Positions 14,060 through 52,212 of a stretch of 64,000 bases of DNA are shown in pieces. Location of the stretch: positions 43,092,001-43,156,000 of the forward strand of contig NC_086097.1 of NCBI RefSeq assembly GCF_963921235.1, given 5' to 3'. Position 1 is the first letter of the stretch. Each line of letters opens with the position of its first letter. The DNA is from Mobula hypostoma (taxonomy: Eukaryota). Both the position numbers and the translations under genes were made by a program. The notes under the pieces are model-generated. The model was not told the DNA's origin. It made no database searches and saw nothing but the letters and a program-made list of their open reading frames with translations.

Positions 14060-14810
14060 GGACCGAGGACTGGCAGATACGTGTGAGGTAATGGATTTTG
14101 GAAAGTCAAACCTCTGAATGGTAGGGCACCAGGGAGTGGAATGGAACAGGAGACAAAAGGAGTACAAGTACATAGTTTGTTGAAAGTGGCGTCGCTGGTT
14201 GACAGTGATGAAAAAGGCATTTAGCACATTGGCCTTAATTGGTCAGGGCATTGGATATAGGAATTGGGACATTATGTTATATTTGTAGAGGTCATTGGTG
14301 AGGCTGCACTTGGAGTATAATCTACAGTTTTGGGCACCCTATTGTAGAAAAGATTTAGTTAAACTGGAAAGAGTGCAGAGAAGATTTAGGAGTACGTTGC
14401 CAGTGCCAGAAGGCTTGAGTTATAGAGAGAGGTTGGCCAGATTAAGTTTTTATTCCTTGGAACGTAGAATATTGAGGGAAAACATTTAAAATTATGAAGC
14501 ACAGACGAGGTGGGTAATAATAGTCTTTTCCACAGAGTATGATATCCCAAAACTAGGGGTATAGATTTAGGATGAGAGAAAAAAGATTTCAAAGGACCTG
14601 AGGGGCAACTGTTTCATGCAGAGGATGGTGAGTATAGAATAAGCTGCCAAAGAGCATTATTGCGACAGGTACAATAATATAATTTAAGAAGCACTTAGAT
14701 GGGTACATGGAGCGACTGGCCTTGGAAGGATATGGGGCGAATGCAGGAAATTGGGATTAGCTGAGTAGGCAGTGTAGTTATTCCGTGCTGTGTTGCTCTG
14801 TGACTCTTCA
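14060..14810 (+). mobile_element. CR1 LINE 3' fragment
   Basis: VRLHLEYNLQFWAPY...LERVQRRF...SLERR, followed by a CR1 3' UTR tail. Confidence 0.85.
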
Positions 14811-16445: not shown

Positions 16446-18074
16446 TTAAAATCTCCATCACATCTTTGCCTTTTAGGGTGGGGGGTGGGGAAATGGTGTC
16501 TGGAGATAGAAAGCATAGCTTTTACAGGCCTCTGAAGGCTGTAGTCTTTTTAAACAAAACTTTTGGGCTAAAGAACAGGTGGAGGGTGGTGTGGGGTTAC
16601 AGTGTTTTTTTTATAGCATTCAAAATGTTGATGCAGCTGGTATAAAGTATGTTATGACAGAACAAAAACTTTTGCCCCGTTGAGGAAGTCAACCTGATGG
16701 AAGTACAAATAAATATAAGCGGCTCATTGGAACGTTCTCTTGAAGATGTCATCGTTTGCTGAGACTTGTAGAATTGCAGTAATCTCCATTTTAAACAAAT
16801 ACATTGGAAAAGCTCCAGAGAAGAAAATAAGGGAATTGCTACAGCACTAAAAAATATAAAAAGAGCTATAAGCTTATTTCCAAACCAATTACCTCTGCAA
16901 GAATGCAAAAACAAATGTTTTTTAGCAGATGACAGAAGAGGAAATATGGCTTCTAGTGATATTTTTTGGAGGTGTATAACATCAGTTGATTGAATTAAAG
17001 AGATCTTCTTTAATGGTGGGGCACTTACCAGAAGCAAGGTTTCATCTCCAATTTGTCAAATAGTAATAACAGACTATTTGTACTTTGGTCAAGGAAATGC
17101 TTATTTTTTCATGACCTTAGATTAGTTACAGAGGTCACATGAAGCCATGTTTAGGATATAACAATCAGTGAATTAGTTGTTATTTTACATCATCCTGAAG
17201 CACTCTGAGTGACTTCTTTGTATATACTCAAACCTCCAGAATTCCATTATACAAGTGTCCTATCCGAATCAGGTTTATTATTACCAGCATGTTATGTGAA
17301 ATTTGTTACCTTAGCAGCAGCAGTTCAATGCAATACATAATATAGAAGAGGAAAAAAAAAATAAAATAAAAAATAATAAATCAATCAATTACAGTATATG
17401 TATATTGAATAGATTAAAAAACATAAAAAATACTGTATATTTTAAAAACATGAGGTACTGTTCACAGGTTCAATGTCTATTTAGGAATCGGATGGCAGAA
17501 GGGAAGAAGCTGTTTCTGAATCGCTGAGTGTGTGCCTTAAGGCTTCTGTACCTCCTACCTGATGGTAGGAGGTACCAACCAGTTGCTCTAACATTGAACA
17601 TGAAATGCTTCAAGAGATTGGTAATGGAGCACTTAAGTGCCAATCTCCAAAATAATTTAGTTCCCCTGTAATTTTGCATACAGAAAAAATAGATCCACAG
17701 GGGACACCATCTCTCTCACACTTCATTCAGCTCTGGATCACCTTGATATTAAGAATACGTATGTCAGGATTCGACTTACTGATTACATTGGGGAACAAAT
17801 TTTTCAGAAGCCTTGCTTCTTCAGAATTTTGTTTTGTTTATGATAGCCTCCTTGAAGCTGAACACCAATGTAATTTCAGACTACTTGTATCATGTAGGAA
17901 TTTGGAGAAACAAATTAATTTTTGTTGAATATAATGCATGTAATTGCATAATGGTGCTGATGCTTTGCAAAAGTTTAACTAAGGTAAAAATGTTTTGTTG
18001 ATGATTTTCATTTGTACTCAGTGTCTGAGGCTTCTGGCTTAGCTGTCCAACAATAATCAGCCAGCATTGATGGA

Positions 18075-18359
18075 ACACACATAAAAGTTGCTGGTGAACG
18101 CAGCAGGCCAGGCAGCATCTATAGGAAGAGGTCTAGTCAACGTTTCGGGCCGAGACCCTTCGTCAGGACTAACTGAAAGAAGAGCTAGTAAGAGGTTTGA
18201 AATCCCTTACTAACTCTTCTTTCAGCTAGTCCTGACAAAGGGTCTCAGCCCAAAACGTCGACTGTACCTCTTCCTATAGATGCTGCCTGGCTTGCTGCGT
18301 TCACCAGCAACTTTTATGTGTGTTGCTTGAAATTCCAGCATCTGCAGATTTCCTCGTGT
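18075..18359. mobile_element. Penelope-like inverted terminal-repeat insertion with two hammerhead motifs and 13-bp TSD
   Basis: Arms ~18075-18195 and ~18205-18325 are reverse complements. Flanked by CAGCATTGATGGA at 18062-18074 and 18360-18372. Confidence 0.88.
18135..18170 (-). ncRNA. Minimal type I hammerhead ribozyme motif (Penelope-associated), core intact
   Basis: Minus strand reads AGUC-CUGACGA-A-GGGUCUCGGCCC-GAAA-CGUU-GACU: stem I AGUC/GACU, conserved CUGANGA and GAAA, palindromic ACGU helix III. Confidence 0.7.
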
Positions 18360-22765: not shown

Positions 22766-23108
22766 ACGCAAACACGAGGAAATCTGCAGATGCTGGAAAT
22801 TCAAGCAAAACACACAAAATGCTGGTGGAACGCTGCAGGCCAGACAGCATCCGTAGGAAGAAGCCCCTCACCCTTTCTCCCTAGGCCTCCCGTCCCATGA
22901 GCCTCTCCCTTCTCCAGCCTTGTATCCCTTTTGTCAATCAACTTCCCAGTTCTTAGCTTTATCCCTCCCCCTCCTGTCTTCTCCTATCATTTCAGATCTC
23001 CCCCTCCCACTTTCAAATCTCTTACTATCTCTTCTTTCAGTTAGTCTTGACGAAGGGTCTCAGCCCAAAACGTCAACTGTGCTTCTTCCTATGGATGCTG
23101 TCTGGCCT
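22766..23108. mobile_element. Penelope-like insertion (partial inverted structure) with 15-bp TSD
   Basis: Flanked by GTTGGATTATGATTA at 22751-22765 and 23109-23123. CAGGCCAGACAGCATCCGTAGGAAGAAGC is inverted against GCTTCTTCCTATGGATGCTGTCTGGCCTG. Mutated hammerhead at 23043-23078. Confidence 0.85.
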
Positions 23109-23576
23109 GTTGGATTATGATTATGCAGTCTGCATCAAAGTCTTTCCAAGTTCACGAGAGGTAACAGAACCCTTACCTTTGTAAATTTTTGTGCAAGTGT
23201 TAGTGCAGCTCCTGTTTGGTGCTGTAGGTACATGTAAAACCAATCAAGAATAGAAGGCAACCAGAGGCAGGAGGCCAGTCCTGAATCTTAAAAAACAACC
23301 ACGCTAAATCATTTCTCTTTGCAAAGCAGCTGAGAAGAAGGGAGTGAAGAAATCGGGTAGAAAAAGTCATTTTTTTTAAAACACTGCTCGGGGAGAAGGG
23401 TCTGCACTGCGCAGGCGTGTGACGTAGCGTGCCAAGGTTTAAAAGCAGACCACCATATACAGCGGCCATCGTTGTAGCGGCCATCATCGGAGTGGACTGA
23501 GTCAGAGTGGGACGACTTTGGCTCAGCAGGCTTCGGCGAGAACAGGCAGAGGCCAGGGTAGGTTCCGGTAAGTTTT

Positions 23577-24541: not shown

Positions 24542-27380
24542 TTGCAGGGGGATGAGACCCAGAGTGCCAGAGCTGACAGTGTGGCTGGGGTGAAAATAAA
24601 TGATGTTAAAAGTTCAAGCAAATCCGCTAATAGAAAGGTTGTGAGTGATGGTAAAAATCTTCTGAGGTGTATATATTTCAATGCTAGGAGTATTGCAGGG
24701 AAGACGGATGAGTTGAGGGTGTGGATTGACACGTGGAATTATGACGTTATAGCAATTAGTGAAACTTGGCTACAGGAGGGGCAGGACTGGCAGCTTAATA
24801 TTCCAGGGTTCCGATGTTTCAGATGTGATCGAGGCAGAGGAATGAAAGGTGGGGGAGTAGCATTGCTTGTTAGGGAAAATATTACAGCAGTGCTCAGGCA
24901 GGACAGATTAGAGGGCTTGTCTACTGAGTCCTTATGGGTGGAGCTGAGAAACAGGAAAGGTAATGGCCTCATTAGTGGGATTGTATTACAGACCATCCAA
25001 TAGTCAATGAGAATTAGAAGAGCAAATCTGCGGAGAGATAGCAGGCAACATAAAGTTGTGGTAGGGGATTTTAATTTTCCATATATTGATTGGGACTCCC
25101 ATACTGTTAGGGGTGTAGATGGTTTAGAGTTTGTAAAATGTGTTCAGGAAAGTTTTCTAAATCAATATATAGAGGGACCAACTAGAGGGGATGCAATATT
25201 GGATCTCCTGTTAGGAAACGAGTTAGGACAAGTGATGGAAGTCTGTGTAGGGGAGCACTTTGGTTCCAGTGATCATAACACCATTAGTTTCTACTTGATC
25301 GTGGACAAGGATAGATCTGGTCCTAGGGTTGAGGTTCTGAACTGGAAGAAGGCCAAATTTGAAGAAATGAGAAAGGATCTAAAAAGCGTGGATTGGGACA
25401 GGTTGTTCTCTGGCAAAGATGTGATCGGTAGGTGGGAAGCCTTTAAGGGAGAAATTTTGAGAGTGCAGAGTTTGTATGTTCCTGTCAGGATGAAAGGCAA
25501 AGTGAATAGAAATAAGGAACCTTGGTTCTCAAGGGATATTGCAACTCTGATAAAGAAGAGAGAGTTGTATGACATGTATAGGAAACAGGGAGTAAATAAG
25601 GTGCTTGAAGAGTATAAGAAGTGCAAGAAAATACTTAAGAAAGAAATCAGGAGGGCTAAAAGAAGACATGATGTTGCCTTGGCAGTCAAAGTGAAGGATA
25701 ATCCAAAGAGCTTTTACAGGTATATTAAGAGCAAAAGGATTGTAAGGGATAAAATTGGTCCTCTTGAAGATCAGAGTGGTCGGCTATGTGTGGAACCAAA
25801 GGAAATGGGGGAGATCTTAAAAAGGTTTTTTTGCATCTGTATTTACTAAGGAAACTGGCATGAAGTCTATGAAATTAAGGGAAATAAGTAGTGAGATCAT
25901 GGAAACTGTACAGATTGAAAAGGAGAAGGTGCTTGCTGTCTTGAGGAAAATTAGTGGATAAATCCCCGGGACCTGACAGGGTGTTCCCTCGGACCTTGAA
26001 GGAGACTAGTGTTGAAATTGCAGGGGCCCTGGCAGAAATATTTTAAATGTCGCTGTCTACAGGTGAGGTGCCGGAGGATTGGAGAGTGGCTCATATTGTT
26101 CTGTTGTTTAAAAAAGGATCAAAAAGTAATCCGGGAAATTATAGGCCAGTAAGTTTAACGTCGGTAGTAGGTAAGTTATTGGAGGGAGTACTAAGAGACA
26201 GCATCTACAAGCATTTGGATAGACAGGGACTTATTAGGGAGAGTCAACATGGCTTTGTGCGTGGTAGGTTATGTTTGACCAATCTATTGGAGTTTTTCGA
26301 GGAGGTTACCAGGAAAGTGGATGAAGGGAAGGCAGTGGATATTGTCTACATGGACTTCAGTAAGGCCTTTGACAAGGTCCCGCATGGGAGGTTAGTTAGG
26401 AAAATTCAGTCGCTAGGTATACATGGAGAGGTGGTAAATTGGATTAGATATTGGCTCAATGGAAGAAGCCAAAGAGTGGTAGTAGAGAATTGCTTCTCCG
26501 AGTGGAAGCCTGTGACTAGTGGTGTGCCACAGGGATCAGTGCTGGGTCCATTGTTATTTGTCATCTATATCAATGATCTGGATGATAATGTGGTAAATTG
26601 GATCAGCAAATTTGCTGATGGTACAAAGATTGGAGGTGTAGTAGACAGTGAGGAAGGTTTTCAGAGCCTGCAGAGGGACTTGGACCAGCTGGAAAAATGG
26701 GCTGAAAAATGGCAGATGGAGTTTAATACAGACAAGTGTAAGGTATTGATCGTTGGAAGGACAAACCAAGGTAGAATATACAGGGTTAATGGTAAGGCAC
26801 TGAGGAGTGCAGTGGAACAGAGGGATCTGGGAGTACAGATAGAAAATTCCCTAAAAGAGGCATCACAGAAAGATAGGGTCGTAAAGAGAGCTTTTGGTAC
26901 GTTGGCCTTTATTAATCAAGGTATTGAGTATAAGAGCTGGAATGTTATGATGAGGTTGTATAAGGCATTGGTGAGGCCGAATCTGGAGTATTGTGTTCAG
27001 TTTTGGTCACCAAATTACAGGAAGGATATAAATAAGGTTGAAAGAGTGCAGAGAAGGTTTACAAGGATGTTGCCGGGACTTGAGAAACTCAGTTACAGAG
27101 AAAGGTTGAATAGGTTAGGACTTTATTCCCTGGAGCGTAGAAGAATGAGGGGAGATTTGATAGAGGTATATAAAATTATGATGGGTATAGATAGAGTGAA
27201 TGCAAGCAGGCTTTTTCCACTGACGCAAGGGGAGGAAAAAAACCAGAGGACATGGGTTAAGGGTGAGGGGGGGGAAAGTTTAAAGGGAACATTAGGGGGG
27301 GCTTCTTCACATAGAGAGTGGTGGGAGTATGGAATGAGCTGCCAGAGGAGATGGTAAATGCGGGTTCTTTTTTAACATTT
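24542..27380 (+). pseudogene. CR1 ORF2 (APE endonuclease + reverse transcriptase), frameshifted
   Basis: YFNARSI, ISETWL, GGGVALLV, VGDFN, SDHN, NYRPVSLTS, DFSKAFDKV, GVPQGSVLGP, FADG (YADD position degenerate). Broken into at least four frames. Confidence 0.92.
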
Positions 27381-28649: not shown

Positions 28650-29504
28650 TGTACGGGGTCTTTCTTTTTGTTAAATTTAAAATGACTTCTCTTGTTATGT
28701 TATACTGAGGAATGCTGAGACAGTCTCTAACTAGACAGTTGCTTGGGTTATTAGAGATAGCAGGGTGCTATTATCCAATGGGTGGTCATGTATCGTTTTG
28801 TTTTCGGATACAATGCTGTATCATATGACTGTGGATGGGGTTTTTGGGGGGGAGTCGGAGGAGAGACGGAGAGGACGGTGGACGGGGTTTTGGTGGGGAG
28901 TCGGAGGAGAGGCGGAGAGGACGGTGGACGGGGTTTTTGACGGGGAGTCGGAGGAGAGACAGAGAGGACGGTGGACAGGGTTTTTGGGGGGAGACGGGGA
29001 GGACGGTGGACGGGGTTTTGGTGGGGAGTCGGAGGAGAGGTGGAGAGGACGGTGGACGGGGTTTTTGACGGGGAGTCGGAGTAGAGACGGAGAGGACGGT
29101 GGACAGGGTTTTTGGGGGGAGTCGGAGGAGAGATGGGGAGGACGGCAGACGTGCAGAAAGGCTCCAGTTGATCACTCCGGGTGGTACTGAGCCGTGAGTC
29201 GACAGGATCCGGGTGGTCGTCAGGAATCGATTGAGCTCCAACGGTAGCACGCGAAGAACTTGGACTTGGATAAGTGTTGGCACCTTTTTTTTTCATTACT
29301 TTCCTCTCTGTATCGAATTTATATTAATGTCATAGAATTAGTAATATCTATAAAGTGTACTTGTTAAAATTTACTGGGTGTGCTGGCTGATGATTGATGT
29401 TTGGGATTGATTCGGGCGGTGACCGACACTGTGGGGAGTGTTGAGGCAGGTGCTGGGTGGGATTTCCCCTAGACATATACGAGCCAATATAACGGAACGT
29501 TACA
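28650..29504 (+). repeat. 5' LTR (855 bp)
   Basis: TGTACGGGGTCTTTC...AACGGAACGTTACA, a direct repeat of 35351-36011. Confidence 0.95.
28831..29145 (+). repeat. G-rich 46-47 bp minisatellite inside the 5' LTR (~7 units)
   Basis: Unit GGGGAGTCGGAGGAGAGACGGAGAGGACGGTGGACGGGGTTTTTGAC. GAGTCGG recurs at 28852, 28898, 28945, 29026, 29073 and 29119, plus one shortened unit. Confidence 0.92.
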
Positions 29505-29506
29505 AG

Positions 29507-29527
29507 TGGGGGCTACTGTCCTGGATT
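29507..29527 (+). other. Primer binding site, tRNA-Pro type (degenerate)
   Basis: TGGGGGCTACTGTCCTGGATT, 2 nt after the LTR, versus the canonical tRNA-Pro PBS TGGGGGCTCGTCCGGGAT. Confidence 0.75.
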
Positions 29528-29575: not shown

Positions 29576-30900
29576 ATGGATCGAGATAAGATTGTAAGTT
29601 GGTGTGAATTGGAGGAGGTACCGGTGAATCATGCTTGCGTGCTAAGTGGGGTCAATTATCGCATTCCGGCAGATGTACTGGTGCGAGGGTTTAGTTTGAT
29701 TAAAGGTATCGGGCAGGTAGAATTTATGGCTAGAAGGTGTGGGAAAGAACTGGAGTCCAGCTGGATGTTGGTGCGGATGAGTGCCAACGTCATGATGTTG
29801 GAGCTACCAGCGACAGTCCACGTCCAGGGGGAGGCAGGGCCGTGGGGTCTCCACACCCTCCTGGAGGACGAAAGTGAGGAGGTGCCAGAGGAGGAGCTAG
29901 ATAAGGCCCCAGGGGAGGAGGGGAGGTGCTAGTAGCCAGAGGTGGAGGTGTGGAGTGGGAAGGCTTGGCCAGGCCCCGTCCCCCAGTTAGGGCTGAGACC
30001 TCCGAGTTATTGGCTGCCATTACCTCCCTGGCGAGAAGGGTTGAGGGGCCCCGCCCGAAGCTGAGAATTTTCTCGGGAGCCAGGCCCACCCCGGAAGGGG
30101 AGGATGAATATGAGACCTGGGTTGAGGATACATCCCAGTTGTTAGAGGTGTGGCCAGTTTCAGATGAGGAAAAGAGACAGCGATTGGTGGAAAGCTTAAG
30201 GGGTGGGGCAGCCCGTGTGGTCTGCGAGTTAAGAGCGGAACACCCTTTGGCTTTCCTGTCGGAGTGTTTGGACACTTTGGAGGAAGTGTTTGGACTGTCA
30301 GGAGATCCCTGGCAACATTTAGCGGAGTTTCAAGGGATGGGGCAGAGAAGAGGGGAAAAGCTCTCAGAATACGTTTTCCGGCTGGAAGGGAAGCTTACGG
30401 GGCTGCGGCACCAAAGGGTAGTGAGGGCAGACGAAGTGGCGAAGTTGAGGATGAGCCAGATATGTAGAGGTTCCCGGGAGGATGACAGGGTGGCTTGGAG
30501 TATCCAGCAGTCATATAAGAGGAGCCCCCCTCCATCATTCGGGCAGCTGATTAGAGAGGTACGGGTGGAGGAGAGTGCTTCGGGCCGACCAGGGGGCTCG
30601 AACCCCCGGGGACGGTCTTCAGCGGTTCAGGAGATGGTAGCCGGGGTGAGATCAGAGAAATCCAAGGGGTCCCCGGGGGGGGGAGGCCTACCGGGAGGAG
30701 AGAGGCGGCGGGTAGCGGGTGCTATAACTGGGAGAGAGGGGCATTTCCAGCAGGAATGTGAGTGGCCGGGGGTGTGCTACAGCTGTGGGGAAGCGGGTCA
30801 CTTGCGGAGGGATTGTGAGAGACGAGATGCTCCGAGGGGGGAGGGCTCCCGGGCCACTAAGAAGGGAGAGCTGTCGGGAAACTTAGGAGAGGCTCAGTGA
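29576..30900 (+). pseudogene. Gypsy gag, PNMA/Ma-like capsid plus CCHC knuckle, one frameshift near 29925
   Basis: MDRDKIVSWC... N-terminus. KLRIFSGARPTPEGEDEYETWVE...WPVSDEEKRQRLVESLRG (PNMA signature), Q..GEKLSEYVFRLE, CYSCGEAGHLRRDC. Confidence 0.88.
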
Positions 30901-30936
30901 GGGAACGGACTGGAGTCTCGGAAGGAACACGTTCCC
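30876..30936 (+). other. Programmed -1 ribosomal frameshift signal (slippery heptamer + pseudoknot)
   Basis: G GGA AAC in the gag frame at 30876-30882. Stem 1 GAGGCTCAGT/ACT(G)GAGTCTC. Loop GGGAACG pairs with CGTTCCC (30930-30936). The protease ORF is in the -1 frame. Confidence 0.8.
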
Positions 30937-33900
30937 AGAAAACAGCTATGGAACCCCAGAAAGTACAAGCCCAAATTCTGGATGGACTGGTGGGACCCTG
31001 TTCCAGTGTGTCCCTACGGATAGAGGGAATCTTTGCGAAAGCCATCCTTGACACCGGGTCACAGGTTACCTTACTGTACCAGTCGTTCTACAACAAATAT
31101 CTGAAGCGTTTGCTAGTAACTCCGTTTAATGCACTGGAGATTTGGGGCATAACTGATGGTGATTACCCGTACGATGGGTACCTGTCAGTGAGATTGGAAT
31201 TTTCGGAGGGAGATGTGGGAGTGTCGGAAGCCTTGCAGACGCTGGTGTTGGTCTGTCTGGACCCGGTGGAAACTGGTGGTGCTGCCCTCTAGTGGGGACT
31301 AACTCCCCTCTGGTGTGACGGCTCTTGGGAGCCGTTAAGAAGAAGGCGGGGGAGAACTTTCTGGAGACCCTCTCGGTACACCCAGTGTTCCGAGCGGTGT
31401 ACGAAGGAGTGGGTGACCCTCAGGGGCTGGATCCTGAGTGCAAACGAGGGACGGTGTGGTGCACTCAGGCGAGGCCTAAGGTGATATGGCCAGGGGAGGC
31501 GGCATTAGTGATGGGGACCCCCAGATTCCCCAGAGTACCGGCGGGCGAGGCCCTGCTAGTAGACGCCCCAGACGACCTGGAAGGGGAGTTCCAGTTCCCG
31601 GCTGGGGCGCTGGTGAGACCTGAATTGCGGAGGCCCTCAGTTGTACAGGCACGGCGGATGGGGGTGATGGTAAGGAACATAACGGAGCGGGATCACTTTT
31701 AACTGCGGGATGCCCCTCGCGCTCTTGTTCCCGGTGACGGTGATGTCCAGCGCCCCCGTGAAGCCCACTGGAGGAAAACTATTGGAGAACGGGGGGCGGC
31801 TGACCGAGGAGGCCTTTAATTTTGAAGACTCCCCTGTACCGCCAGCGTATAAAAGCAGGCTGGTGGAGAAGATGCTGAAGTTAGGGAATGTCTTTTCCCA
31901 GGGCGAGTTTGATGTGGGATGTTCCAAGAGCGCTCGGCACACTATCCGGGTGACAGATGACACCCCGTTTAGAGAGAGGTCGCGGCGGTTAGCCCCAGCA
32001 GATGTGGAAGATGTGCGTCAGTTGAAGGATGCAGGGAATATCGCGGAGTCCCGAAGCCCCTATGCATCCCCCATAGTGGTGGCAAGGAAGAAACATGGGA
32101 AGGTACGCACGTGCGTGGACTGCAGGACCCTGAACCGGCGCACTGTTCCTGACCAATATACGGTCCCAAGGGTGGAAGATGCCTTGGCCTGTCTGAGTGG
32201 TGCACAGTGGTTCAGTGTATTGGATTTGCGGAGTGGGTATTACCAGATTCCGATGAGTGAGACCGATATAGAGAAGACGGCCTTTATCTGCCCCCTGGGA
32301 TTTTTCCAGTTCAAACGAATGCCCCAAGGCGTCTCGGGGGCCCCAGCCACCTTCCAGCGGCTCATGGAGCGGACAGTGGGGGACATGAACCTGCTGGAGG
32401 TATTGGTGTACCTGGACGACCTGATAGTGTTTGGATCTACGTTGGAGGAACATGAGGAGCGGCTGCTGAAGGTGCTGAGTCGGCTGAAGGAGGAAGGGTT
32501 AAAACTTTCCCTGGGTAAATGTCAGTTCTGTAAGACGTCGGTCAGTTATGTCGGGCACATAATCTCGCGAAATGGAGTGGCCACTGATCCGGGTAAGATA
32601 GCCACAGTAACCACCTGGCCGAGACCTCAGAAGGTGAGCGCCTTACGCTCGTTTTTGGGGTTTTGCAGTTATTACCAGCGATTCGTGAAAGGATATGCGA
32701 AAATGAGTCATCCATTGAACCAGCTGTTGTGTGGTTATCCACCTGTGGGGAGGAAGAGGAAGGGAGACCGAGGGCCAGAGGTAAGAGGATACTTGAACCC
32801 AGGGGAGCCTTTTGGATTGAGGTGGAATGCTCAATGTGAGGAGGCGTTCCAATCTCTGAACAGGGCGCTGACACAGGCCCTGGTGTTGGCTTTTGCTGAT
32901 CCCCGGAAGCCATATGTTCTATACACTGATGCCAGTCACGAGGGTCTGGGGGCTGTCCTGTACCAGTAACAGGGCAACGGATTGAGGCCGGTGGCGTTTG
33001 TCAGCCGGAGCTTGTCGCCATCTGAGAGAAACTATCCCACTCACAAGCTGGAGTTCTTGGCGCTGAAATGGGCGGTGGTGGACAAGTTGAGTGACTACCT
33101 ATACGGGGCCCAGTTTGAGGTAAGAACTGACAGCAACCCCCTCACTTATATCCTGACCTCGGCAAAGCTAGATGCTACTGGGCACCGGTGGATAGCAGCC
33201 TTGTCTGCCTATGAGTTCAGCCTGAAGTACCGCCCGGGGAGTCGGAACATCGATGCAGATGCCCTGTCTCGTCGGGCGCACGAGGAGTCAGGCACGGCTG
33301 AGGAGTGGAAGAGTGTCCCTGCCCCGGGAGTAAAGGCCATGTGTCAAGTTGGGAGCGACAGGGAAGTAGTAGCACAGATGGGAATGGATCGGGCAGTAGG
33401 TCAATTGGGGGTTGACGATGATGTGCTACCCACTGTTTACTGTAATTTGACTGCTCTGAGGAACAGGCAGCTGCCGGAGTTGAGCCCCCAGGAAGTGGAG
33501 GCGGCTCAGCGTGATGACCCGAGCATTGGCACTATCTGGTACGCGGTTAGCCAGGGTGATATGGGGCAGGTGGAGAAGGCGAAGCATGCCTCCGTTCCCC
33601 TACTACTGAAGGAGTGGCCTCGGTTGAAGCTGAAGAACCACGTCTTGTACCGGGTCACGTCGCCTCCGGACCACCCCCGGCGCTGGCAGCTGGTCATGCC
33701 TGAGAAGTATTGGAAGACTGTGCTCCAGGCACTGCAAGATGATTCCAGGCACTTAGGGGTAGAGAAGACCTATGGATTAGTCAAGGACCGGTTTTACTGG
33801 CCCCAGATGAGGGGGGAGGTGGAAGAATACTGTAAGACCTGTAGTCGTTGCATCCGGAGGAAGACCTTACCTGTGCAGGCGGCTCCTTTGTCCCACTTGC

Positions 33901-35069
33901 AGAGTGCAGGACCCATGGACCTGGTATGTATGGATTTCCTGTCTATTGAGCCAGACACCAGCAACACCACCAATGTCTTGGTCCTCACAGATCACGACAC
34001 GAGATATGCGCAGGCTTTTCCTACTAAGGATCAGAAAGCGACTACAGTGGCGAAGGTGTTATTGGGAGAAGTACTTTGTTCATTATGGCCTTCCCCGGCG
34101 GATCCATAGTTGTCAGGGACGGGACTTCGAGAGCAGGCTTATCCATGAATTACTGGGTATGCTTGGGGTTGAGAAATCCAGAACCACCCCTTATCACCCG
34201 CAGGGTGATCCTCAGCCCCAGAGGTTTAACCGAACCCTGCTGGACATGCTCGGCACTTTGGAGATTGGACAGAAGAGTAAGTGGAGTCAGCACATTTCCC
34301 ATTTGGTTCACTGTTACAATTGTACTCACAATGATGCTACGGGGTACTCGCTCTACTATCTGATGTTCGGACGGGAAGCGAGGTTGCCCATTGATCTGTG
34401 TTTTGGGACTGAAGTGGGTGAAATACCTTCGAAGCCATGTCTGAAGTACATGTCTGATATGAGGAGAGAGTTGAGAAGGGCGTATGAGTTGGCTGAGGCG
34501 GCAGCCACCAAGCAGAACCAGCGGAATAAGAAGAGGTATGATCAGAAAGTAAAGTTCGTCCAGCTATTGCCGGGAGACCGAGTCCTTATCCGGAATTTAG
34601 GACTACCTGGAAAGCACAAGTTGGCGGACCGTTGGGCAGCCACCCCCTATGTGGTGGAGAGTCAGATGCCGAATCTCCCTGTTTACCGGGTGAGACCTGA
34701 GGACGGGAAGGGGCCTGTCAAGGTACTCCATCGGAACCACCTATATTGCCTCTGAGTCGAGAGGTGAAGGTAGACCCAGAGCCTGAATGGGAGTTTACGC
34801 CTAGTACGAGGACTCTGCGAGGGCGCAGGGCGAGGGAAGAGCCCGCTGCGAAGAAGACGGGGCCGGTCCCCACCTTGCGAAGGGATACGTCATCGGAAGA
34901 TGATTCCGACGTGTGGTACCTGTTTCCGTTCGCTGATTCCCCGGTGCCGGGAGAAGAGGCTCCTGGCCCTTCCATCACTGAGTTAGGGGAACCGAGGGAG
35001 GGTGTTGCAGAGTCGCCTGTATTACAGCCGGAATTGGGGGAGGAGAAGGTGGAGCCAGAATCTGAATGA
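30880..35069 (+). pseudogene. Gypsy pol (protease, RT, RNase H, integrase), disrupted
   Basis: ILDTGSQV; DLRSGYYQI, RMPQG, YLDD (32409-32420); YTDAS, SERNY..KLEFLAL; HLG..KT..C..C, CMDF, GRDFES, RTTPYHPQG. Stops at 31290 and 32967 and frameshifts near 31700, 34065 and 34745. Confidence 0.93.
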
Positions 35070-35337: not shown

Positions 35338-35350
35338 GGTGGGGGGAGAG
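35338..35350 (+). other. Polypurine tract
   Basis: GGTGGGGGGAGAG immediately before the 3' LTR TG. Confidence 0.85.
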
Positions 35351-36011
35351 TGTACGGGGTCTTTCTTTTTGTTAAATTTAAAATGACTTCTCTTGTTATG
35401 TTATGCTGAGGAATGCTGAGACGGTCTCTAACTAGACAATTGCGTGGGTTATTAGAGATAGCAGGGTGCTATTAACCAATGGGTGGTCATGTACCGTTTT
35501 GTTTTCGGATACAATGCTGTATCATATGACTGTGGCCGGGGTTTTGGCGAGGAGTCGGAGGAGAGACGGAGAGGACGGTGGACGGGTTTTTTGACGGGGA
35601 GGACGGTGGACGGGTTTTTTGACGGGGAGTCGGAGGAGAGACGGGGAGGACGGCGGCCGTGCGGAGAGGCTCTGGTCGATCACTCCGGGTGGTCCCGAGC
35701 CGTGAGTGGACAGGATCTGGGTGGTCGTCAGGAATCGATTGAGCTCCAACGGTTGTGCACGAAGAACTTGGACTTTGATAAATGTTGGCGCCTTTTTTTT
35801 CATTACTTCCCTCTCTTTATTGAATTTATATTAATGTCATAGAATTAATAATATCTATAAAGTGTACTTGTTAAAATTTACTGGGTGTGCTGACTGATGA
35901 TTGATGTTTGGGATTGATTCGGGCTGCGACTGACCCTGTGGGGAGCGTTGAGGTAGGTGCTCGGTGGGATTTCCCCTAGACATATATGAGCCAATATAAC
36001 GGAACGTTACA
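35351..36011 (+). repeat. 3' LTR (661 bp)
   Basis: Same termini as the 5' LTR. Carries only about 2.5 minisatellite units. Confidence 0.95.
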
Positions 36012-36295: not shown

Positions 36296-39200
36296 TTCAA
36301 AGTTCAAAGTAAATGATGGATGCTGCTTTCCTACAACAGCACTCCTTGTAGATGTACTCAATGGTGGTGAGGGCTTTACCTGTGAACTGGACTGTATCCA
36401 CTACTTTTTGTAGGCTTTTCCATTGAAGGGTATTGGTGTTTCCATACCAGGACTTGATGAAATCAGTCAGTATAATCTCCACTGCACATCTACAGAAGTT
36501 TGTCAAAGTTTAAGATGACATGCCAAATCTTCACAAACTTCTAAGAAAATAGAGGTGCTGCTGTTCTTGCTTTATAATGGCACTTAAGTGCAGGTCCCAA
36601 GACAGATCCTCTGAAATGAAAGCACTGAGGAATTTAAAATTTCTGACCCTCTCCACCTCTGATCCCCAATGAAGATTGGCTCATGGATCTCCGGTTTTTT
36701 CCTCCTGAAGTAAATAATCAACTCTTTGGTCTTGCTGACATTGAGTGAGAGGTGGTTGTTTTAGCACTGCTCAGCCAGATTTTCAGTCACTCTCCTCCAT
36801 GCTGATTCCTCACCTGCTTTGATACAGCTAACGGCAGTGGTGTCATCAAGAAATTTTAAAATGGCATTGGAGCTGTGCTTAGCCTCACAGTCATAAGTGT
36901 AAAGTGAGTAGAGCAGGGGACTAAGCACACAGCTTTGTGGTGAACGAGTGCTGAAGGTGACTGGAGAGTATGTTGCTGCCAATCTGATCTGACTCATGTC
37001 TGCAAGTAAGGAAGTCAAGGATCCAGATGCACAAGGAGATTTGAGGCCTAGATATTGAAGCTTATTGGTTAGCTTTGACGGGATGATGGTATTTAATACC
37101 GAGTTGTAGACACTGAAGACCATCCTGATGTATGCATCTTCATTGCCAGATGTGCCAAGGTTGAGCGAAGTGCAAATAAAATGACATCTGCTGTTGATTT
37201 GTTGTGACAGTAGGCAAGTTCAAAGTACATTTATTATCAAAGTATGTATACTATATACACCTTGATATTCATCTCCTTATAGGCAGCCACAAAACAAAGA
37301 AACCCAATAGAACCCTTTCTTTAAAAAGAAGTCATATAGCCAATGTGCAGAAAAAAACAAATTGTGCGAACAATAGAAGTAAGCAAATAACATTCAGAAC
37401 TGAAGTTCCCAAAAGTGAGTTCACAGCCACAAAACCAGTTACAGTCAATCCAGGAGACCCTTAGTTGCAGGTCACTACCTCAGTTCACTACAAAGATCGG
37501 CTAGAACACTGGCCCATCTCTCTCCTCTGGGCCTGATACCCTGACCCTTTCAATCTGGCCTGGTGCTTAAATTGGCCAAACATCAGGTGGTTCCTTGTTC
37601 TTGGTCCTGGGCCCCGCCACCTCAATTCAGCCAGTTCCCAATCTTTCCCCTCTGGTGTGGCTCCTGTGTAAGTCAAACATCGACTTGTTCCTTGCTCTCG
37701 GGCCCTGCAGCCTCTACTCTTCCTCGTCTCGGTTTAGCAGCTTTGAGTTGCCTCCAAGTTTGCTCCAGCAACAGCCAAACATTGGCCTGGGTCCTGCTGC
37801 TTCGATTTGACCTGTACATCCATACCACGACCATTCTGCAACTCAGAGACTCCAGTTCACACCACAGAATGCCAGGTTGTACAAGCTGTCCAAAAGCTCA
37901 ACTCTGAAAGGGCAGTTGCAGGCAATTGATTGCAATAATAGTTTTTGAGGAAAAAGTGCAATGAAGTAATTCGTATTTCTGCTGCCAGCAACACATCACT
38001 GTGCTTCATGTTAAACAGAAATTGGACTGGATCCAGGTCGCTTCTCAGGCAGGAGTTAATATGTTTCATCACCAACTTCTCAAAGCACTGTATGTGTTAC
38101 TGGACGATAGTCATTGAGGCAGGTTACTATGTTCTTCTTGAGTACCGATATAATTGAAGCCTGCTTGAAGCAGGTGGGTACCACAGACTGCTGAAGCAAG
38201 AGTTAAAGATATACTGATATCTTTAATTGACCATTCCAACCAGTTAATCAGCGCAGGTCTTTACTACTCAGCCTGTCTGAGCCGGATTCTTTCCATGGGT
38301 TAACCCTCTTGAAAAATCCTCCCACATCAGCCTCAGAGACTGTAATCACAGGGTCATTGGTGAATGTGGGAGTATGTGAAGGTGCCTCCATGTTTTGATG
38401 GTCAAAACTAGCATAAAAGGCGTTGAGCTCATCTGGATGTGAAACCTGTGTTGCTTGGGTTCACTTTGTTGGAAGTGAAAGAATTCAAGTGCTGCCCTAG
38501 CTGTCAAGCATCCTTCAGTGATTGAAGTTTAGTCTAGAGATGCTACTTAGTACGTGAGGTGGTTTTCTGGCGGTTGTACCTGGACCTCTTGTATTTTACT
38601 TGGTCGCCAGACTTGAATGCCACTTATCTGGCCCTCAGCAGACTGTGGATCTCATGATACATACAGAACTTCTGGTTAGGGATGACTCTGAATGATTTTG
38701 TGGGGACACATTCATTTTTATAAAACGAGTTTTCATAAGGTCCGTGATAACCATGGCGTATTCATTCAGATCCTCTGAGTCCTTGAATATGGCCCAGTCC
38801 ATCCAGTAGCCACTCCTTTGCCTCCTGCAACTACCCCTTTGTTGTCCTTACTTCTAAATTCTTGCTCTTTATCCTCTACCTGTATGCAGGTAGGAGGACA
38901 GCCAGATGATGGGATCAGAATCAAGTTTATTATCACTAGCATATGTTGTGAACTTTGTTAACTTTACAGCAGCAGTACAATGCGATACATGATAAGTATA
39001 GAAAAAAACGGAGTTACGTAATATATATGTATATTAGTTAATTGAAGGTAAGTAGTGCATAAACAGAAATTTTAAGTAGTGAGGTAGTGTTCATGGGTTC
39101 AATGTCCATTTAGAAAGCAGATGGCAGAGGGGAGGAAGCTGTTCCTGAGTGCAGGCTTTCAGGCAACAATGAGAAGTGGGCATGTCCTGGGTGGTGGGGG

Positions 39201-40410
39201 TCCTTGATGATGGAAGCTACTTTTCTGAGGCATCGCTCCTTGAAGAACTCTTGGATACCACGGTTGCTAGTACCCATGCATGGAGCTGACTAATTTTACA
39301 ACTCTCTGCAGCTTACATTGACCCTATGCAGTAGCACCCACCCCCCCCACGCATACCAGACAGTGATGCAGTCAGTCAGAATGCTCTCCACGATACATCT
39401 GTAGAAGTTATTGAGTGTTTTAGGTGACAAATCAAATCTCCTCAATCTCCTGATAAAATACTCCCTCCACTTCTGATCCCTCTGAGGATTGGTTTGTGTT
39501 CTCTTGTCTTTCCCTTTCTGAAGTTCACAATCTGCTCTTTTGTCTTACTGATATTGAGTACAAGGTTGTCACTGAAACACCACTCAACTAGTTGGTATAT
39601 CTTGCTCCTGTACACCCTCTCATCACCATCTGAAATTCTGTCAGATACAACGATGGTTGTATCATTAGCATTTTTATAGATGGTATTTAAGTTATGTCTA
39701 GCCACACAGATTTCTTGAAATGCAGTCAAGGAATCGAAGAATAGGCATTCCTAATCGAAGTATAACAGTGGTCAAGTGTGTTGGGGTCTGTTATACTGCA
39801 GGTGACATGTTGATGATAATTGGCCAGAGATTTCTTCAAACAACCCTGATTGAAGTCCTCAGTAATGATTTGAAAGGCATCGGGGTAGGCTGTTTCTTGT
39901 TTGCTGATCATGACACTCAGTATGTCTAGTACATTGGCCTTTGGCGGTACATAAACTGCGGTTAGGATCACAGAGGAGAACTCACGCGGTAAGTAGAATT
40001 GTCAGCACTTCCCCCGTCTTTTGCCTTCTCAGATTCAGCAGTCCAGTCCATCCAGTATATGAAGAAACCCTTGGATCTTACCAACATGCCCGAGGTCAGC
40101 CATGTCCCTGTGAAACACAGAACCCAGCTATCCCTCATTTACTTCCAATGCAGCAAATCTTGCTCTTCGGTCCTCCACCTTATTCTCCAATGACTGTGTA
40201 CATTTGCTGACAAGATACCAGGTAGAGGAGGCTTCATACTCCGACGTTTTCATCTGACTTAGAGTTTTCCCCTCCCCCTTCTCTTCCAGCTGTAGTAGTG
40301 CACCAGTGATGGCAAGATGGTACTGATAAAACACAGCGACGCTTTGTGGGCAGCTTATAAAACTTATAAATTTACTTCTGAACTATTCTCAGTGCAATCT
40401 GCAGCCTGTA
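36296..40410 (-). mobile_element. Rex1/Babar LINE cluster with nested insertions (~37217-37940 non-coding retroelement; ~38915-39718 Rex1 3' pieces)
   Basis: Minus ORFs LTAVYVPPKAN..DFNQ..NTLDHCY, VMKHINSCL..DLDP, CVLSPLLYSLYTYDC..KFLDDTT, KSWYGN..LQKVV. Confidence 0.85.
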
Positions 40411-40958
40411 ATTTCCCTCTATTGAAATGAATGAGAAATCATTCGAAAATTGGGTTATTAAAGAAACTGACTCATTAGACATCAATTCTGACAGAACTGT
40501 TGCAGAAAGATCTCAGTAAACAGCTGCCAGAGATTTGCTGCTTCCATGTTCACGCACACCACATGCTTGTTAGTTATGCTTGCCATCTTGTTAGTTATAC
40601 ACTTTGCTGGCATTTTTCAGCAGCCATAGATAATTCTGAGAAGAACGGCAGAACTTTTAAAAATAATTATTTAACGGCTCAACAGAATTAAGTAGTTAGC
40701 TCGTAATCAATTGTCTTGAGGTTATTCCTCCATATTCTAATTTGGGAAAGTACTAGGTTCATGTACTAATTTAGATTACCTGGTTATGTTTCTTGTCTTT
40801 TAACATATAAAATCTAATTCTAACGATTAAACAATAACTTTCAGTCTGATGTAGAGAATGTCTTTGTTCAACTTTTGTGCATTATTAATTATGATGGTGA
40901 CCTCAGTTTCATTAGAGGCTTAAATTAGTCAACAGTGTTTCCCTTTATCTCTTCCTAG

Positions 40959-41031
40959 GTGATGCATGGATATATAATGTTGGAGCTAGTGAATGGAGGC
41001 AACTGGAGCATTGTCCTAAGAATAGACCCAG
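40959..41031 (+). CDS. KLHDC1: KLHDC1 coding exon 10, 73 bp
   Basis: cctag|GT...CCCAG|gtataa. DAWIYNVGASEWRQLEHCPKNRP. Confidence 0.94.
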
Positions 41032-41409
41032 GTATAAACAAAGGAAATTTCTGCTGAAGAATGCAACTTTTTTTGTGTACATAAAAAATCAGTAATTATT
41101 ATTTGAGAGGACTCACAAAATTCGCCATATTTCAGTATTTAGACAGTGGGCAGGGTAAAAGAAGACAACGAAGGTAAACTTAAAGTGAACTTGTGTATGT
41201 GGTAACAAATTGGAAATTCTGTTTAAATCATTGATTTGATCCTGTGCAGAATTTGAAATACCAAAGTTGCATTGTCCAATTCTAAACAGTTTGCCTAAAA
41301 TAAATATTCATTAGTTATTAAATAATTACTATAATTTTTAAACTTAAAACCATCTATTTTGGGGAAAAATAAAAATGCAGCAATTAAATAAATTAAATTA
41401 ACAAAGCTG

Positions 41410-42755
41410 ATTAAAGACTTGTAACTGTAGACCTGTGACTCTTAACATCATTGGTAGGGAAGATGTCGGAAAAATATTCTTAGGAAAAGAAATTGGAAAG
41501 GCAAGGACGAATCAATGCCAGCCAACCTGACTTTGTCAAGGGCAGATCCTGTCAGACTAATTTGATTGAAATCTTTGAAGCGGTAACAAAGTGTATTAAA
41601 AAGGGCAGGGTAATATAATTTACATAAACTTTAGTAAAGCCTTTGACAAGGGCCCTCATGGGAGATTGGCTTGCCAAGTAAGGGCTCATGGAATCCAGGG
41701 CAAGTTGGTAAACTGTATTCAAAACAGACTTGGAATAGCAAACCTCGGGTGATGCCAGAGGGTTGTTTTTACAATCAGATACCTGTGACTAGTAGCGTAC
41801 CACAAGGATTGGTGCTGGGACTCTTGCTCTTTGTAATGTACGTGAATGACTTTGATATGGGAGGCATGATCAATAACTTTGTGGATGACATGAAGTGGTG
41901 TTTGGTAGTATAGAATGTAGTCTTCGGCCACGGAGATCATTGTTTTGGCGAAATAGGCTGAATTTGATGGTGATTAATTGAGACAAATGTAAGATGATGG
42001 TTTGCAGGAGAACTAATGAGGTTGCAGTAATGTAGATATACACAATGAATGTTAGGGTCTTGGGAGGTATTACAGAACAGTAAATTATAGTAAAATTTCA
42101 TAGATATTTGAAGGTGGCAATCAGATATACAACATAGGAAGGCATATGGGATATTGTCCTTAATTAATTGGGCCATTGAGTACAGAAGTAAGGAGGTTAT
42201 GCTCCAACTTTATGAAATTTTGGCCAGACTTCAGTTGGAATAGTGTTGCAATTCTGCTCACCAAGGAAGGATGTGGTAGCACTGGACAGTGTGTAAAGGA
42301 GATTAACCAGGATGTTGCTTGGGGTGAAGTAGTTCAATTATGAGGAGGAACCGGAGTAGTATTTTTTTACCCCCCTGGGAGCAGAAATTGTTACGGGGAG
42401 ACATTCTGAAGTGTATAAAACTGAGGGTATAGATGGGTAGACTGCAGGAAACTTTCATACATATCAGAGGAAGGTAAAACTAGAGGTTTAAGGTAAGGAG
42501 GAAGAGTGGATTTGAGGAGGAGATTCTTCAACCTGAGGGAGCAAGCAATTGGAATATAGAGGTACGTACTCTGGATAGAGTGGTTGAAGCTGGGTTGCTG
42601 ATAACATTTATTAAGTGTATGGATGAGCACTTCAATCATTTGGACAAAGATGGCAATGGACCAGGTATGGGGAATGGGGTTAATATGGAAGGGTATCCAA
42701 TGCTTAGCATGGACAAGTTGGGCCAATTGGCCTGTTTCCATGCTGCATGGATTTC
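41410..42755 (+). mobile_element. Degraded CR1 RT/3' fragment
   Basis: FSKAFDK, PVTSSVPQGLVLGLLLFVMYVND..FVDD, followed by a CR1 tail. Confidence 0.85.
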
Positions 42756-43619
42756 TGAGAATATCAATGTGGTGCTATACACTTAACTTGTATCTACTGT
42801 TTCCTGCAAGCAAGGTTTCCATTTTTAAATGAAATTTTGTTTTAAAAAAAGTTGATATTTCTCCACAGGGAATTAGGAATGGGAATTGAAAAAATATTGC
42901 TTCCACTCTCAGGGCTGTACTCTCTAGTGCAAAAAATTAGGTTATATGCTAACTAGTACAGTATATGATTTTTTTTTTAAAAAGAACAAATGTGCAACTT
43001 GTGAGTTACATGCTCAACTTCAGTTGATAAAATTTTCTTATTGAATAGTTGCAGCACTCAGTCCATAGAATTCTTATGTAGCTCTTCACAAGAGCAATCC
43101 AGGTCATCACATCTCCCTTTTCTTTCCCAGAGACCCTGTTTTTATTTTCTAAGTATCAAACAAATTCTGGATAGGTTTGATTCTTCTTCCTCTATTTTCA
43201 GATAATGAATTGTAGATACTGACTACTTGCAACACAGGATCCAGTACTGGTTGTAACGCTGTATTCCATAATACAGCTTCAGATATTTGAGCACTTTTGT
43301 GTCCCTGCGTTTCTGTTCTAGTGTCCTCTTCAGAACTGTCCGTTTCTTATTCCTTTACATTTTCTTCTTCATAGTAAAGTCTATTACTTTACTCTTCTTG
43401 ACAGTACAGTGATAAAAAAGGTATTTAGCCAAGACGTTAATCCTGTTTCTTTCTTCACAGATGCTGCATGGCCTTCTAGGTATTTCCCACATTTTCTGTT
43501 TTCAATACTTCATTTCAGCCCCTAGAATGAATTAATTGCCAGCTGAATTTTAGCTGAATAATTTATTGTTATGCTTTAAATGCTTTTTGAAAGTCCACAA
43601 TTTAACAGCATTGTCCTCA

Positions 43620-51844: not shown

Positions 51845-52060
51845 AGTAGCCAGGAGACACACACCACATTTTTAAGAAAAAAGCCGAAATAAACATGCTA
51901 ATTAATTAGGTGCTGCCTAGCACGTAATTGTCAGCCCAGATCAGTGCTGACGCAATCGCCTCTGATCTGCACCGACATTTACGTGCTGGGCAGCACCTGA
52001 TTAATTAGCATGTTTATTTCGGCCTTTTTCTTAAAGATGTGCTGTGTGCCTCCCAGCTAC
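51845..52060. repeat. Long internal palindrome (~100-bp arms) within the Tigger
   Basis: AAGAAAAAAGCCGAAATAAACATGCTAATTAATTAGGTGCTGCCTAGCACGTAA... inverted to ...TTACGTGCTGGGCAGCACCTGATTAATTAGCATGTTTATTTCGGCCTTTTTCTT. Confidence 0.9.
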
Positions 52061-52212
52061 TCCTGCGTGCTTCGCGGCAATGTATCAGTCGGCAGCCTGG
52101 AGGGTGGGGGCCACTGCACCACCCCAACCTGCGACGACTCAGTCTAACACAACATCATCAGTGTGCTCGATGTCTTCCCAATTCCAGTAAATGATACTAC
52201 ACTGTACATACA

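What the first reader, a model, noticed from the sequence alone, without database searches (positions are those of the whole stretch)
30876..30936. Intact -1 frameshift cassette (G GGA AAC + H-type pseudoknot) in a PNMA-like Gypsy element
Seen: gag ends ...TCG GGA AAC TTA GGA GAG GCT CAG TGA, so the X XXY YYZ heptamer is in the gag frame. The protease ORF (30897-31292) is exactly -1 and open from the slip site. After a 6-nt spacer, GAGGCTC-AGT (30889-30898) pairs with ACT-g-GAGTCTC (30909-30919), and loop GGGAACG (30901-30907) is perfectly complementary to CGTTCCC (30930-30936). Known: the domesticated Gypsy genes PEG10 and PNMA3 use GGGAAAC plus a pseudoknot. Inference: this is a retrotransposon-stage version of the PNMA recoding signal, and it survives although pol is broken further downstream.
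Basis: partly seen in the sequence, partly recalled or inferred. Interest (0 to 1): 0.7.

Follow-up and report, generated by a model that had tools for sequence, protein, structure and literature searches.

The report
Gag-pol frameshift signal in dead retrotransposon
This is the ordinary 'slip back one base' signal that a family of fish and ray jumping genes uses to join its capsid and enzyme genes, left intact by chance in a broken copy; the human PNMA3 gene carries the same slip site at the same place, inherited from a cousin lineage.

Summary
It sits in a 7.4-kb PNMA-type Ty3/Gypsy LTR element, most likely of a ray. The signal is a family trait. G-N (GGA AAY) follows the zinc knuckle in 48 of 63 related Gags (shuffles: mean 8.7), including human PNMA3. 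A distant relative (L001) keeps the heptamer and the stem-2 core, with a compensatory pair in stem 1. Gag is also broken upstream of the slip site, so the signal cannot work in this copy, and its survival is expected by chance (P about 0.2-0.4). PNMA3 groups with turtle elements, not with this branch. Stem 2 is less secure than stem 1: a competing hairpin is as stable or more so. -1 frameshifting between gag and pol is common in animal LTR elements. Real, well supported, new member of a known kind.

The parts
28650..29504 (+). 5' LTR (855 nt, TG...CA) with a variable array of ~46-nt repeats
   Evidence: K2P 0.070 to the 3' LTR over 661 aligned columns; flanking 4-mers AACG / AATG (target-site duplication with one mismatch)
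29505..29527 (+). primer-binding-site-like stretch directly behind the 5' LTR (tRNA-Pro type by recall)
   Evidence: similar stretch behind the LTR end of L001; tRNA assignment recalled, not tested
29576..29932 (+). gag, N-terminal piece (ATG 29576), ends at a stop after a frame change
   Evidence: 88% identity to aa 1-114 of P0001
29905..30900 (+). gag, C-terminal piece: PNMA capsid domain, one damaged and one intact zinc knuckle, ends G-N-L-G-E-A-Q-stop
   Evidence: (PF14893 E 9e-39; zf-CCHC E 9e-06)
30876..30882 (+). slippery heptamer G_GGA_AAC in the gag frame
30883..30888 (+). 6-nt spacer (variable)
   Evidence: 2 of 6 identical to L001
30889..30919 (+). stem 1 (30889-30898 / 30909-30919), single bulge on the 3' strand; holds the gag stop (30898-30900) at its top
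30901..30936 (+). stem 2 (30901-30907 / 30930-30936) and loop 3 (30920-30929); the 3' strand can alternatively pair with the start of loop 3
30861..31292 (+). -1 frame: linker and aspartic protease (LDTGSQ motif); closes at a stop where the frame changes
   Evidence: (56-74% identity to the protease part of 16 Pol-type proteins); no Pfam hit
31289..34755 (+). rest of pol (linker, RT, RNase H, integrase) in pieces: frame changes near 31289, 31693 and 34018-34064; stops at 31316, 32967 and 34753
35338..35350 (+). purine-rich tract before the 3' LTR
   Evidence: sequence directly
35351..36011 (+). 3' LTR (661 nt)

Best explanation
The cassette is the normal gag-pro -1 programmed ribosomal frameshift signal of a PNMA-type (Barthez-like) Ty3/Gypsy retrotransposon family. 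In active relatives, ribosomes translating gag pause at a compact H-type pseudoknot 6 nt behind G_GGA_AAC; a minority slip back one base (tRNA-Gly and tRNA-Asn re-pair on GGG AAA) and make Gag-Pol, while the rest stop five codons later and make Gag. Shown: frame geometry, family-wide conservation of the slip codons, stem 1 with compensation. Inferred: stem 2 pairing in vivo, the slip itself and its rate. In this genomic copy the signal is a passenger: gag is broken upstream and pol just behind the protease, and the copy is young enough for 60 nt to be unhit by chance.
For: Geometry. Element anatomy. G-N 10-30 aa behind the last knuckle in 48 of 63 Gag tails, shuffle mean 8.7, max 17 of 2000; 25 of the 63 end five residues after G-N; 32 of 46 where the profile match ends before the G-N columns (shuffle mean 5.9); only 2 of 48 have a preceding residue whose codon cannot end in G, against 17.7% in the background. 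The -1 frame peptide G-K-L appears in 4 gene models of Hypanus, Serrasalmus and Metynnis. L001: heptamer 7/7, stem-2 strands 7/7 and 6/7 identical, against spacer 2/6, loop 1 0/2, flanks 13/30 and 11/30, and 214 of 534 synonymous third positions elsewhere in pol; stem 1 has an A-U to G-C change on both sides and a G-U to A-U change; loop 3 differs by exactly 3 nt. Outer stem-2 pair inferred from codons: G-C in 3 ray-type sequences, U-A in 6 teleost-type proteins. Laid contigs: no difference row in the heptamer among the 40 of 50 rows shown; summed depth peaks at the cassette and at the protease active site. Literature: 28 of 51 animal LTR retroelements have pol in -1, many with classic heptamers (PMC5009743, passage).
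Against: No frameshift was measured. Stem 2 rests mostly on invariance; its one compensatory change is inferred from protein and is in effect one lineage event, and in L001 that pair is a G-A mismatch. Rough energies do not favour the pseudoknot: -18.5 against -18.0 kcal/mol nested in the window, -20.2 against -25.0 in L001 (recalled penalties, no coaxial stacking). A stem-2 breaking change at 30907 (a CpG site) has 3-9% of depth, the top pair of stem 1 is lost in 11-46%, and 10 difference rows were hidden. Part of the conservation can come from double coding (30861-30900) and from the E-R / R-S residues. Rfam has no matching family.
Confidence: 0.85

Rival explanations
1. Same slip site, but the stimulator is stem 1 alone or stem 1 plus a second nested hairpin (start of loop 3 pairing with the 3' strand of 'stem 2'), or the RNA switches between that form and the pseudoknot.
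For: The nested form is as stable or more stable by rough estimate. A hairpin starting right behind stem 1 can be drawn in the window, in L001 and in a loose-end sequence of a divergent subfamily (12 contigs in X1, agreement 0.84).
Against: That hairpin changes register between the three, so it shows no conserved pairs. It does not explain why the loop of stem 1 stays complementary to the 3' strand (6 of 7 pairs kept in L001) or the G-C / U-A swap at the outer pair.
Confidence: 0.2
2. The cassette is kept in this copy by selection for a host function (incipient PNMA-like domestication making a Gag-protease product).
For: All paired and heptamer positions match the majority of laid contigs; the only near-private difference inside the cassette is at unpaired 30922. 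ATGs exist in the gag frame behind the break (30337, 30451, 30634).
Against: Gag is broken upstream, the first zinc knuckle is damaged, both LTRs are still present and 7% apart, and 6 of 271 positions carry near-private differences, so an unhit cassette has P = 0.23-0.40.
Confidence: 0.03
3. The -1 offset is a post-insertion mutation and the heptamer and stems are chance in a G-rich region.
For: The copy has at least four other frame changes and a strong G skew; some PNMA-type relatives carry gag and protease in one frame (11 of 78 rows).
Against: L001 has the same -1 overlap at the same heptamer with uninterrupted frames in the stretch held; 25 of 63 Gags stop five residues after G-N; shuffles give the structure in 0-1 of 1500.
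Confidence: 0.01

Closest known systems
PNMA3 (Ma3) and PNMA5 -1 frameshift signal of mammals
   Same: PNMA-type Gag; G_GGA_AAC heptamer plus H-type pseudoknot for Ma3, about 20% (PMC5009743, passage; PMC11299033, passages); G-N at 19/21 aa behind the zinc knuckle against 20 here.
   Different: Domesticated genes without LTRs or Pol; the -1 product has no recognised domain (PMC11011659, passage). The PNMA3 gag frame continues 15 codons past the first G-N, here 5. PNMA3 lies in another subclade, near turtle elements. Pseudoknot sequences were not compared: Wills et al. 2006 is not held.
PEG10 (Edr) and RTL3/ZCCHC5 gag-protease -1 frameshift
   Same: Same heptamer, H-type pseudoknot for PEG10, protease in the -1 frame.
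   Different: Chromovirus/sushi-derived, a separate domestication (PMC3670739 Table 1; PMC11011659 section 8). Parallel use of a common heptamer, not shown to be homologous.
gag-pol -1 frameshift sites of animal Ty3/Gypsy (Metaviridae) elements in general
   Same: pol in -1 frame behind a tandem-slip heptamer, as in 28 of 51 animal elements in a 2003 survey (as summarised in PMC5009743; the survey itself not read).
   Different: That survey was mostly Drosophila elements; I found no paper in the held library that describes this cassette in PNMA-type elements of rays or teleosts.
Barthez-clade / Gypsy-30_Ami-like metaviruses with RBD-CA-NC Gag
   Same: PNMA capsid domain plus zinc knuckle, long N-terminal Gag domain, LTR-gag-PR-RT-RH-INT order; such elements are reported from fish, amphibians and reptiles (PMC11011659, passage).
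   Different: Clade membership by RT tree was not tested; no cartilaginous fish is named among the genomes searched in the passages read.

Membership tests
eukaryotic -1 PRF signal (heptamer + spacer + stimulator) | X_XXY_YYZ heptamer in the zero frame | tested here: met
   conserved in L001 and as G-N in 48 of 63 Gag tails
eukaryotic -1 PRF signal (heptamer + spacer + stimulator) | structure starting 5-8 nt behind the heptamer | tested here: met
   stem 1 starts after 6 nt (5 in L001); compensatory and one-sided changes keep it; 5-8 nt range from PMC11299033
eukaryotic -1 PRF signal (heptamer + spacer + stimulator) | stimulator is an H-type pseudoknot (stem 2 forms) | tested here: inconclusive
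   7 WC pairs, 6 kept in L001, one inferred compensatory swap; competing hairpin of equal or lower energy
eukaryotic -1 PRF signal (heptamer + spacer + stimulator) | open -1 frame encoding a needed product without its own entry | tested here: met
   protease frame 30861-31292, 56-74% identical to Pol N-termini; in L001 977 aa open to the end of the locus
eukaryotic -1 PRF signal (heptamer + spacer + stimulator) | frameshifting above background in cells | not testable with these tools
   needs a reporter or ribosome profiling
Ty3/Gypsy (Metaviridae) LTR retrotransposon, PNMA-type Gag | paired TG...CA LTRs, TSD, PBS, PPT | tested here: met
   TSD has one mismatch
Ty3/Gypsy (Metaviridae) LTR retrotransposon, PNMA-type Gag | order gag-PR-RT-RNase H-integrase | tested here: met
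   (integrase core by similarity to P0022; no Pfam hit of its own)
Ty3/Gypsy (Metaviridae) LTR retrotransposon, PNMA-type Gag | PNMA capsid domain PF14893 | tested here: met
   E 9e-39
Barthez clade | RT/RNase H phylogeny with named Barthez elements | not tested
domesticated PNMA gene (PNMA3/5 type) | intact gag ORF, no LTRs, not a multicopy repeat | tested here: not met
   gag interrupted, both LTRs present, 405 and 426 contigs laid on 271 nt in X1 and X3
domesticated PNMA gene (PNMA3/5 type) | groups with mammalian PNMA in a Gag tree | tested here: not met
   (quick tree, SH-aLRT only): window Gag nests with ray and teleost elements; PNMA3 in a separate 40-row set (99)
PEG10 / sushi (Chromovirus) lineage | sushi-type Gag rather than PNMA-type Gag | tested here: not met
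   PF14893 hit and PNMA-named nearest relatives

The most novel reading that the evidence does not exclude
The G_GGA_AAC slip site about 20 codons behind the zinc knuckle is an ancestral trait of the whole PNMA-type metavirus clade, present from starfish and sea cucumber to rays, teleosts, frogs and turtles, lost in a nested teleost lineage with in-frame gag-pol, and PNMA3's frameshift of 'unclear relevance' is this same gag-pro junction inherited by descent. In the ray/teleost branch it is driven by a compact pseudoknot whose stem-1 bulge moves between lineages and whose stem 2 competes with a nested hairpin, possibly a two-state stimulator.
Probability: 0.55. Interest if true: 0.4.

Novelty: new member of a known kind. 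Interest (0 to 1): 0.27.

Why it matters
Modestly. It gives a concrete, compact frameshift cassette for an abundant vertebrate retrotransposon clade and protein-level evidence that the PNMA3 slip site is an inherited gag-pro junction rather than a mammalian invention, which specialists already assume for such genes. It also explains why gene callers label many such Gags 'paraneoplastic antigen Ma-like' ending in G-N plus five residues. It reveals no new mechanism and no function of this particular copy.

Tried and rejected
No whole genome is held for the window, so copies could not be aligned with phase. Rfam at E <= 10 on 30600-31200: 2 unrelated weak lncRNA matches. Viral contigs: 4 protein scans and 1 pattern scan gave no relative. 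Metagenome scan: 2 loci, L001 used, L002 (42% over 38 aa) dropped as a remote protease match. Pattern scan of prokaryote genomes: 2 matches (L003, L004), rejected as chance: no gag or protease similarity by tblastn. The third protein search covered only 2628-5000 aa and added nothing on the junction. Run X21 laid 0 reads, no test. No RNA holder listed. Supplement of PMC11299033 (1 file held as text) has no GGGAAAC; sequence files that I could not see may hold the PNMA3 cassette. Not held: Wills 2006, Khan 2022, Manktelow 2005; supplements and Fig. 5 of PMC11011659 were not seen and may show a frameshift in Gypsy-30_Ami. Rejected ideas: selection on this copy (chance suffices), post-insertion origin of the -1 offset, direct ancestry of PNMA3, homology to PEG10. 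No tRNA genes in the window.

Full report
Observation. The finding is in the sequence as written. A script reads 30876-30882 as GGGAAAC, in the gag frame as TCG GGA AAC TTA GGA GAG GCT CAG TGA; the protease frame is -1 and open from 30861 to 31292. Stem 1 (30889-30898 / 30909-30919) has 10 pairs with one G-U and one bulged G; stem 2 (30901-30907 / 30930-30936) has 7 Watson-Crick pairs; the loops are 2, 1 and 10 nt. With thresholds set after seeing the structure, 0 of 1500 dinucleotide shuffles of the 65 nt behind the heptamer gave a stem of 9 bp or more plus a 7-bp loop pairing (1 of 1500 at 6 bp), and 0 of 1897 other positions of the element did. Rfam has no matching family.

The element. The cassette lies in a 7.4-kb LTR element: LTRs 28650-29504 and 35351-36011, K2P distance 0.070 over 661 columns, 4-nt target-site duplication with one mismatch. 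Pfam finds the PNMA domain and a zinc knuckle in gag, then RT, RNase H and the integrase zinc finger. The protease frame has no Pfam hit but is 56-74% identical to the protease part of 16 of the 18 proteins found. The nearest named relatives are from Mobula, Hypanus and Hemitrygon, so the host is most likely a ray (inference). tblastn with relatives places the breaks: in gag a frame change at about 29917-29923 with a stop at 29930; in pol frame changes near 31289, 31693 and 34018-34064 and stops at 31290, 31316 and 32967. The first zinc knuckle is damaged.

Family conservation at protein level. Of 160 Gag-like proteins (16, 144 new), 63 had one to three zinc knuckles, under 620 aa and an 8-120 aa tail; the other 97 were left out. 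G-N occurs 10-30 aa behind the last knuckle in 48 of 63 (2000 shuffles: mean 8.7, max 17), mostly at 19-22 aa; 25 of 63 end five residues after it. The signal is not made by the search profile: 32 of 46 proteins whose profile match ends before the G-N columns have it (shuffle mean 5.9), and only 2 of 48 have a preceding residue whose codon cannot end in G, against 17.7% in the background. A few rows are near copies of each other. Named carriers include cyprinid and loach fish, Xenopus and other frogs, a turtle, a starfish, a sea cucumber and PNMA3. In the -1 frame, 4 gene models from Hypanus, Serrasalmus and Metynnis read G-K-L at the same place; G-N in one frame and G-K-L in the other require G GGA AAY.

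Family conservation at DNA level. One full relative was found, L001, 61% identical in the protease, with gag 552-1961 and a -1 frame from 1922 open to the end of the locus. Against the window: heptamer 7/7, spacer 2/6, stem-1 strands 6/10 and 7/11, loop 1 0/2, stem-2 strands 7/7 and 6/7, loop 3 10 against 13 nt, 30-nt flanks 13/30 and 11/30; synonymous third positions elsewhere in pol agree in 214 of 534. Stem 1 changes A-U to G-C on both sides at one pair and G-U to A-U at another, gains a bottom pair, loses the top pair and moves its single bulge along the 3' strand; stem 2 keeps 6 of 7 pairs, the outer one being a G-A mismatch. Codon logic adds one swap: the outer stem-2 pair is G-C where the -1 peptide reads R...Q (window, P0017, P0018) and U-A where it reads M/V...K/T (P0019, 20, 21, 24, 26, 28); 7 further proteins start too late to tell. 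That is in effect one lineage event.

Copies in sequencing runs. On 30790-31060, 405, 426 and 30 contigs of runs X1, X3 and X13 were laid; X21 gave none. Of 50 difference rows 40 were shown, unphased. None of the shown rows is in the heptamer. In stem 1, a change at 30892 (21-25% of depth) keeps its pair, one at 30894 (11-68%) is compatible with the stem if the bulge shifts (my inference), and one at 30909 (11-46%) loses the top pair. In stem 2 a change at 30907, a CpG site, breaks a pair in 3-9%. Spacer, loop 1 and loop 3 vary. Summed depth is highest at the cassette and at the protease active site (X1: 14,320 and 8,511 against 2,562 and 2,875 in the flanks; X3: 36,343-43,405 and 52,259 against 22,357 and 22,738), which suggests that divergent subfamilies align only there; this depth is no copy number. 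Six of 271 positions differ from at least 83% of depth in both X1 and X3, one of them in loop 3. At that rate 41 critical bases stay unhit with P = 0.40, at half the LTR distance with P = 0.23. The intact cassette needs no selection on this copy.

Evidence against the pseudoknot. Nearest-neighbour estimates with recalled Dirks-Pierce penalties and no coaxial stacking give -18.5 kcal/mol for the pseudoknot against -18.0 for stem 1 plus a nested hairpin in the window, and -20.2 against -25.0 in L001. The nested hairpin pairs the start of loop 3 with the 3' strand of stem 2; it can also be drawn in a loose-end sequence of a divergent subfamily, but in a different register each time. Stem 2 is therefore probable, not proven; a two-state structure remains open.

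Relation to PNMA3 and PEG10. Human PNMA3 has G-N 19 and 21 aa behind its knuckle, the window 20. In a quick maximum-likelihood tree of 78 Gags (SH-aLRT only, midpoint root) the window nests with ray and teleost elements whose Gag ends five residues after G-N; PNMA3 lies in another set (99) with two turtle proteins and a marsupial one (96; names). G-N is spread over the large 69-row group; 11 rows have gag and protease in one frame without it, 5 of them in one nested teleost set, though some may be gene-model joins. So the slip site is likely shared by descent, but this element is a cousin, not a proxy for the ancestor. PEG10 is assigned to another clade (PMC3670739 Table 1).

What is known. 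PMC5009743 (passages): G_GGA_AAC is among the most shifty heptamers; Ma3 shifts at about 20% with an H-type pseudoknot; a 2003 survey found pol in -1 in 28 of 51 animal LTR elements. PMC11299033 (passages): the same heptamer in PEG10, PNMA3, PNMA5 and Rtl3. PMC11011659 (passages and part 1 of section 8): PNMA-type metaviruses are still active in fish, amphibians and reptiles; PEG10's ancestor 'almost certainly' had the frameshift; the relevance of the PNMA3/5 shift is unclear. bioRxiv 10.1101/513333 (passages) and PMC13622457 (passages) confirm activity and pseudoknot type for the human signals. Seven searches (listings only) found no description of this cassette in ray or teleost elements, but the primary papers on Ma3 and Edr are not held and the 2003 survey was not read. 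One earlier scan note (e1-7166013) also called this kind of signal ordinary for Gypsy elements; I did not test it.

Verdict. A real, conserved gag-pro -1 frameshift signal of a PNMA-type Gypsy family (about 0.85), inactive in this broken copy. New member of a known kind; interest 0.27.

Noticed in passing
window 28767-29161 and 35514-35641: Both LTRs hold a G-rich ~46-nt tandem repeat; the 5' LTR has about four more units than the 3' LTR (194 gap columns), so the array changed during or after insertion.
   Followed up: partly
window 30900: In 5-50% of laid depth the third base of the gag stop differs with no listed partner change, so some subfamilies may end Gag further downstream; 24 of 78 Gags in the tree also have longer tails behind G-N.
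   Followed up: no
proteins P0053, P0054, P0068, P0101, P0115 and P0083, P0104, P0131, P0146, P0149, P0170: PNMA-type Gag runs in one frame into the protease with no G-N: at least one nested lineage (medaka, Astyanax) seems to have dropped the frameshift. Some may be gene-model joins.
   Followed up: partly
proteins P0073, P0080, P0086: E-N stands where relatives have G-N, which would fit a G_GAA_AAC variant heptamer.
   Followed up: no
window 30912 and L001 about 1976: Stem 1 always has one extra base on its 3' strand, but the bulge sits at different positions in the window, in L001 and in a common ray variant.
   Followed up: partly
window 26047-27357: 436-aa stop-free frame that looks like a CR1-type LINE reverse transcriptase, 1.3 kb upstream of the LTR element; related fragments at 10547-10867, 14217-14478 and 41613-41856.
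   Followed up: no
window 18067-18331 and 51835-52071: Long near-perfect inverted repeats (132-nt and 110-nt arms, 1 and 17 nt apart); the first is related to repeats at 22769-23112, 52215-52489 and 62687-62967 and looks like a non-autonomous repeat family.
   Followed up: no
L003 1501-1562, L004 1393-1451: Bacterial genome matches to the cassette pattern; no gag or protease nearby, judged chance.
   Followed up: yes
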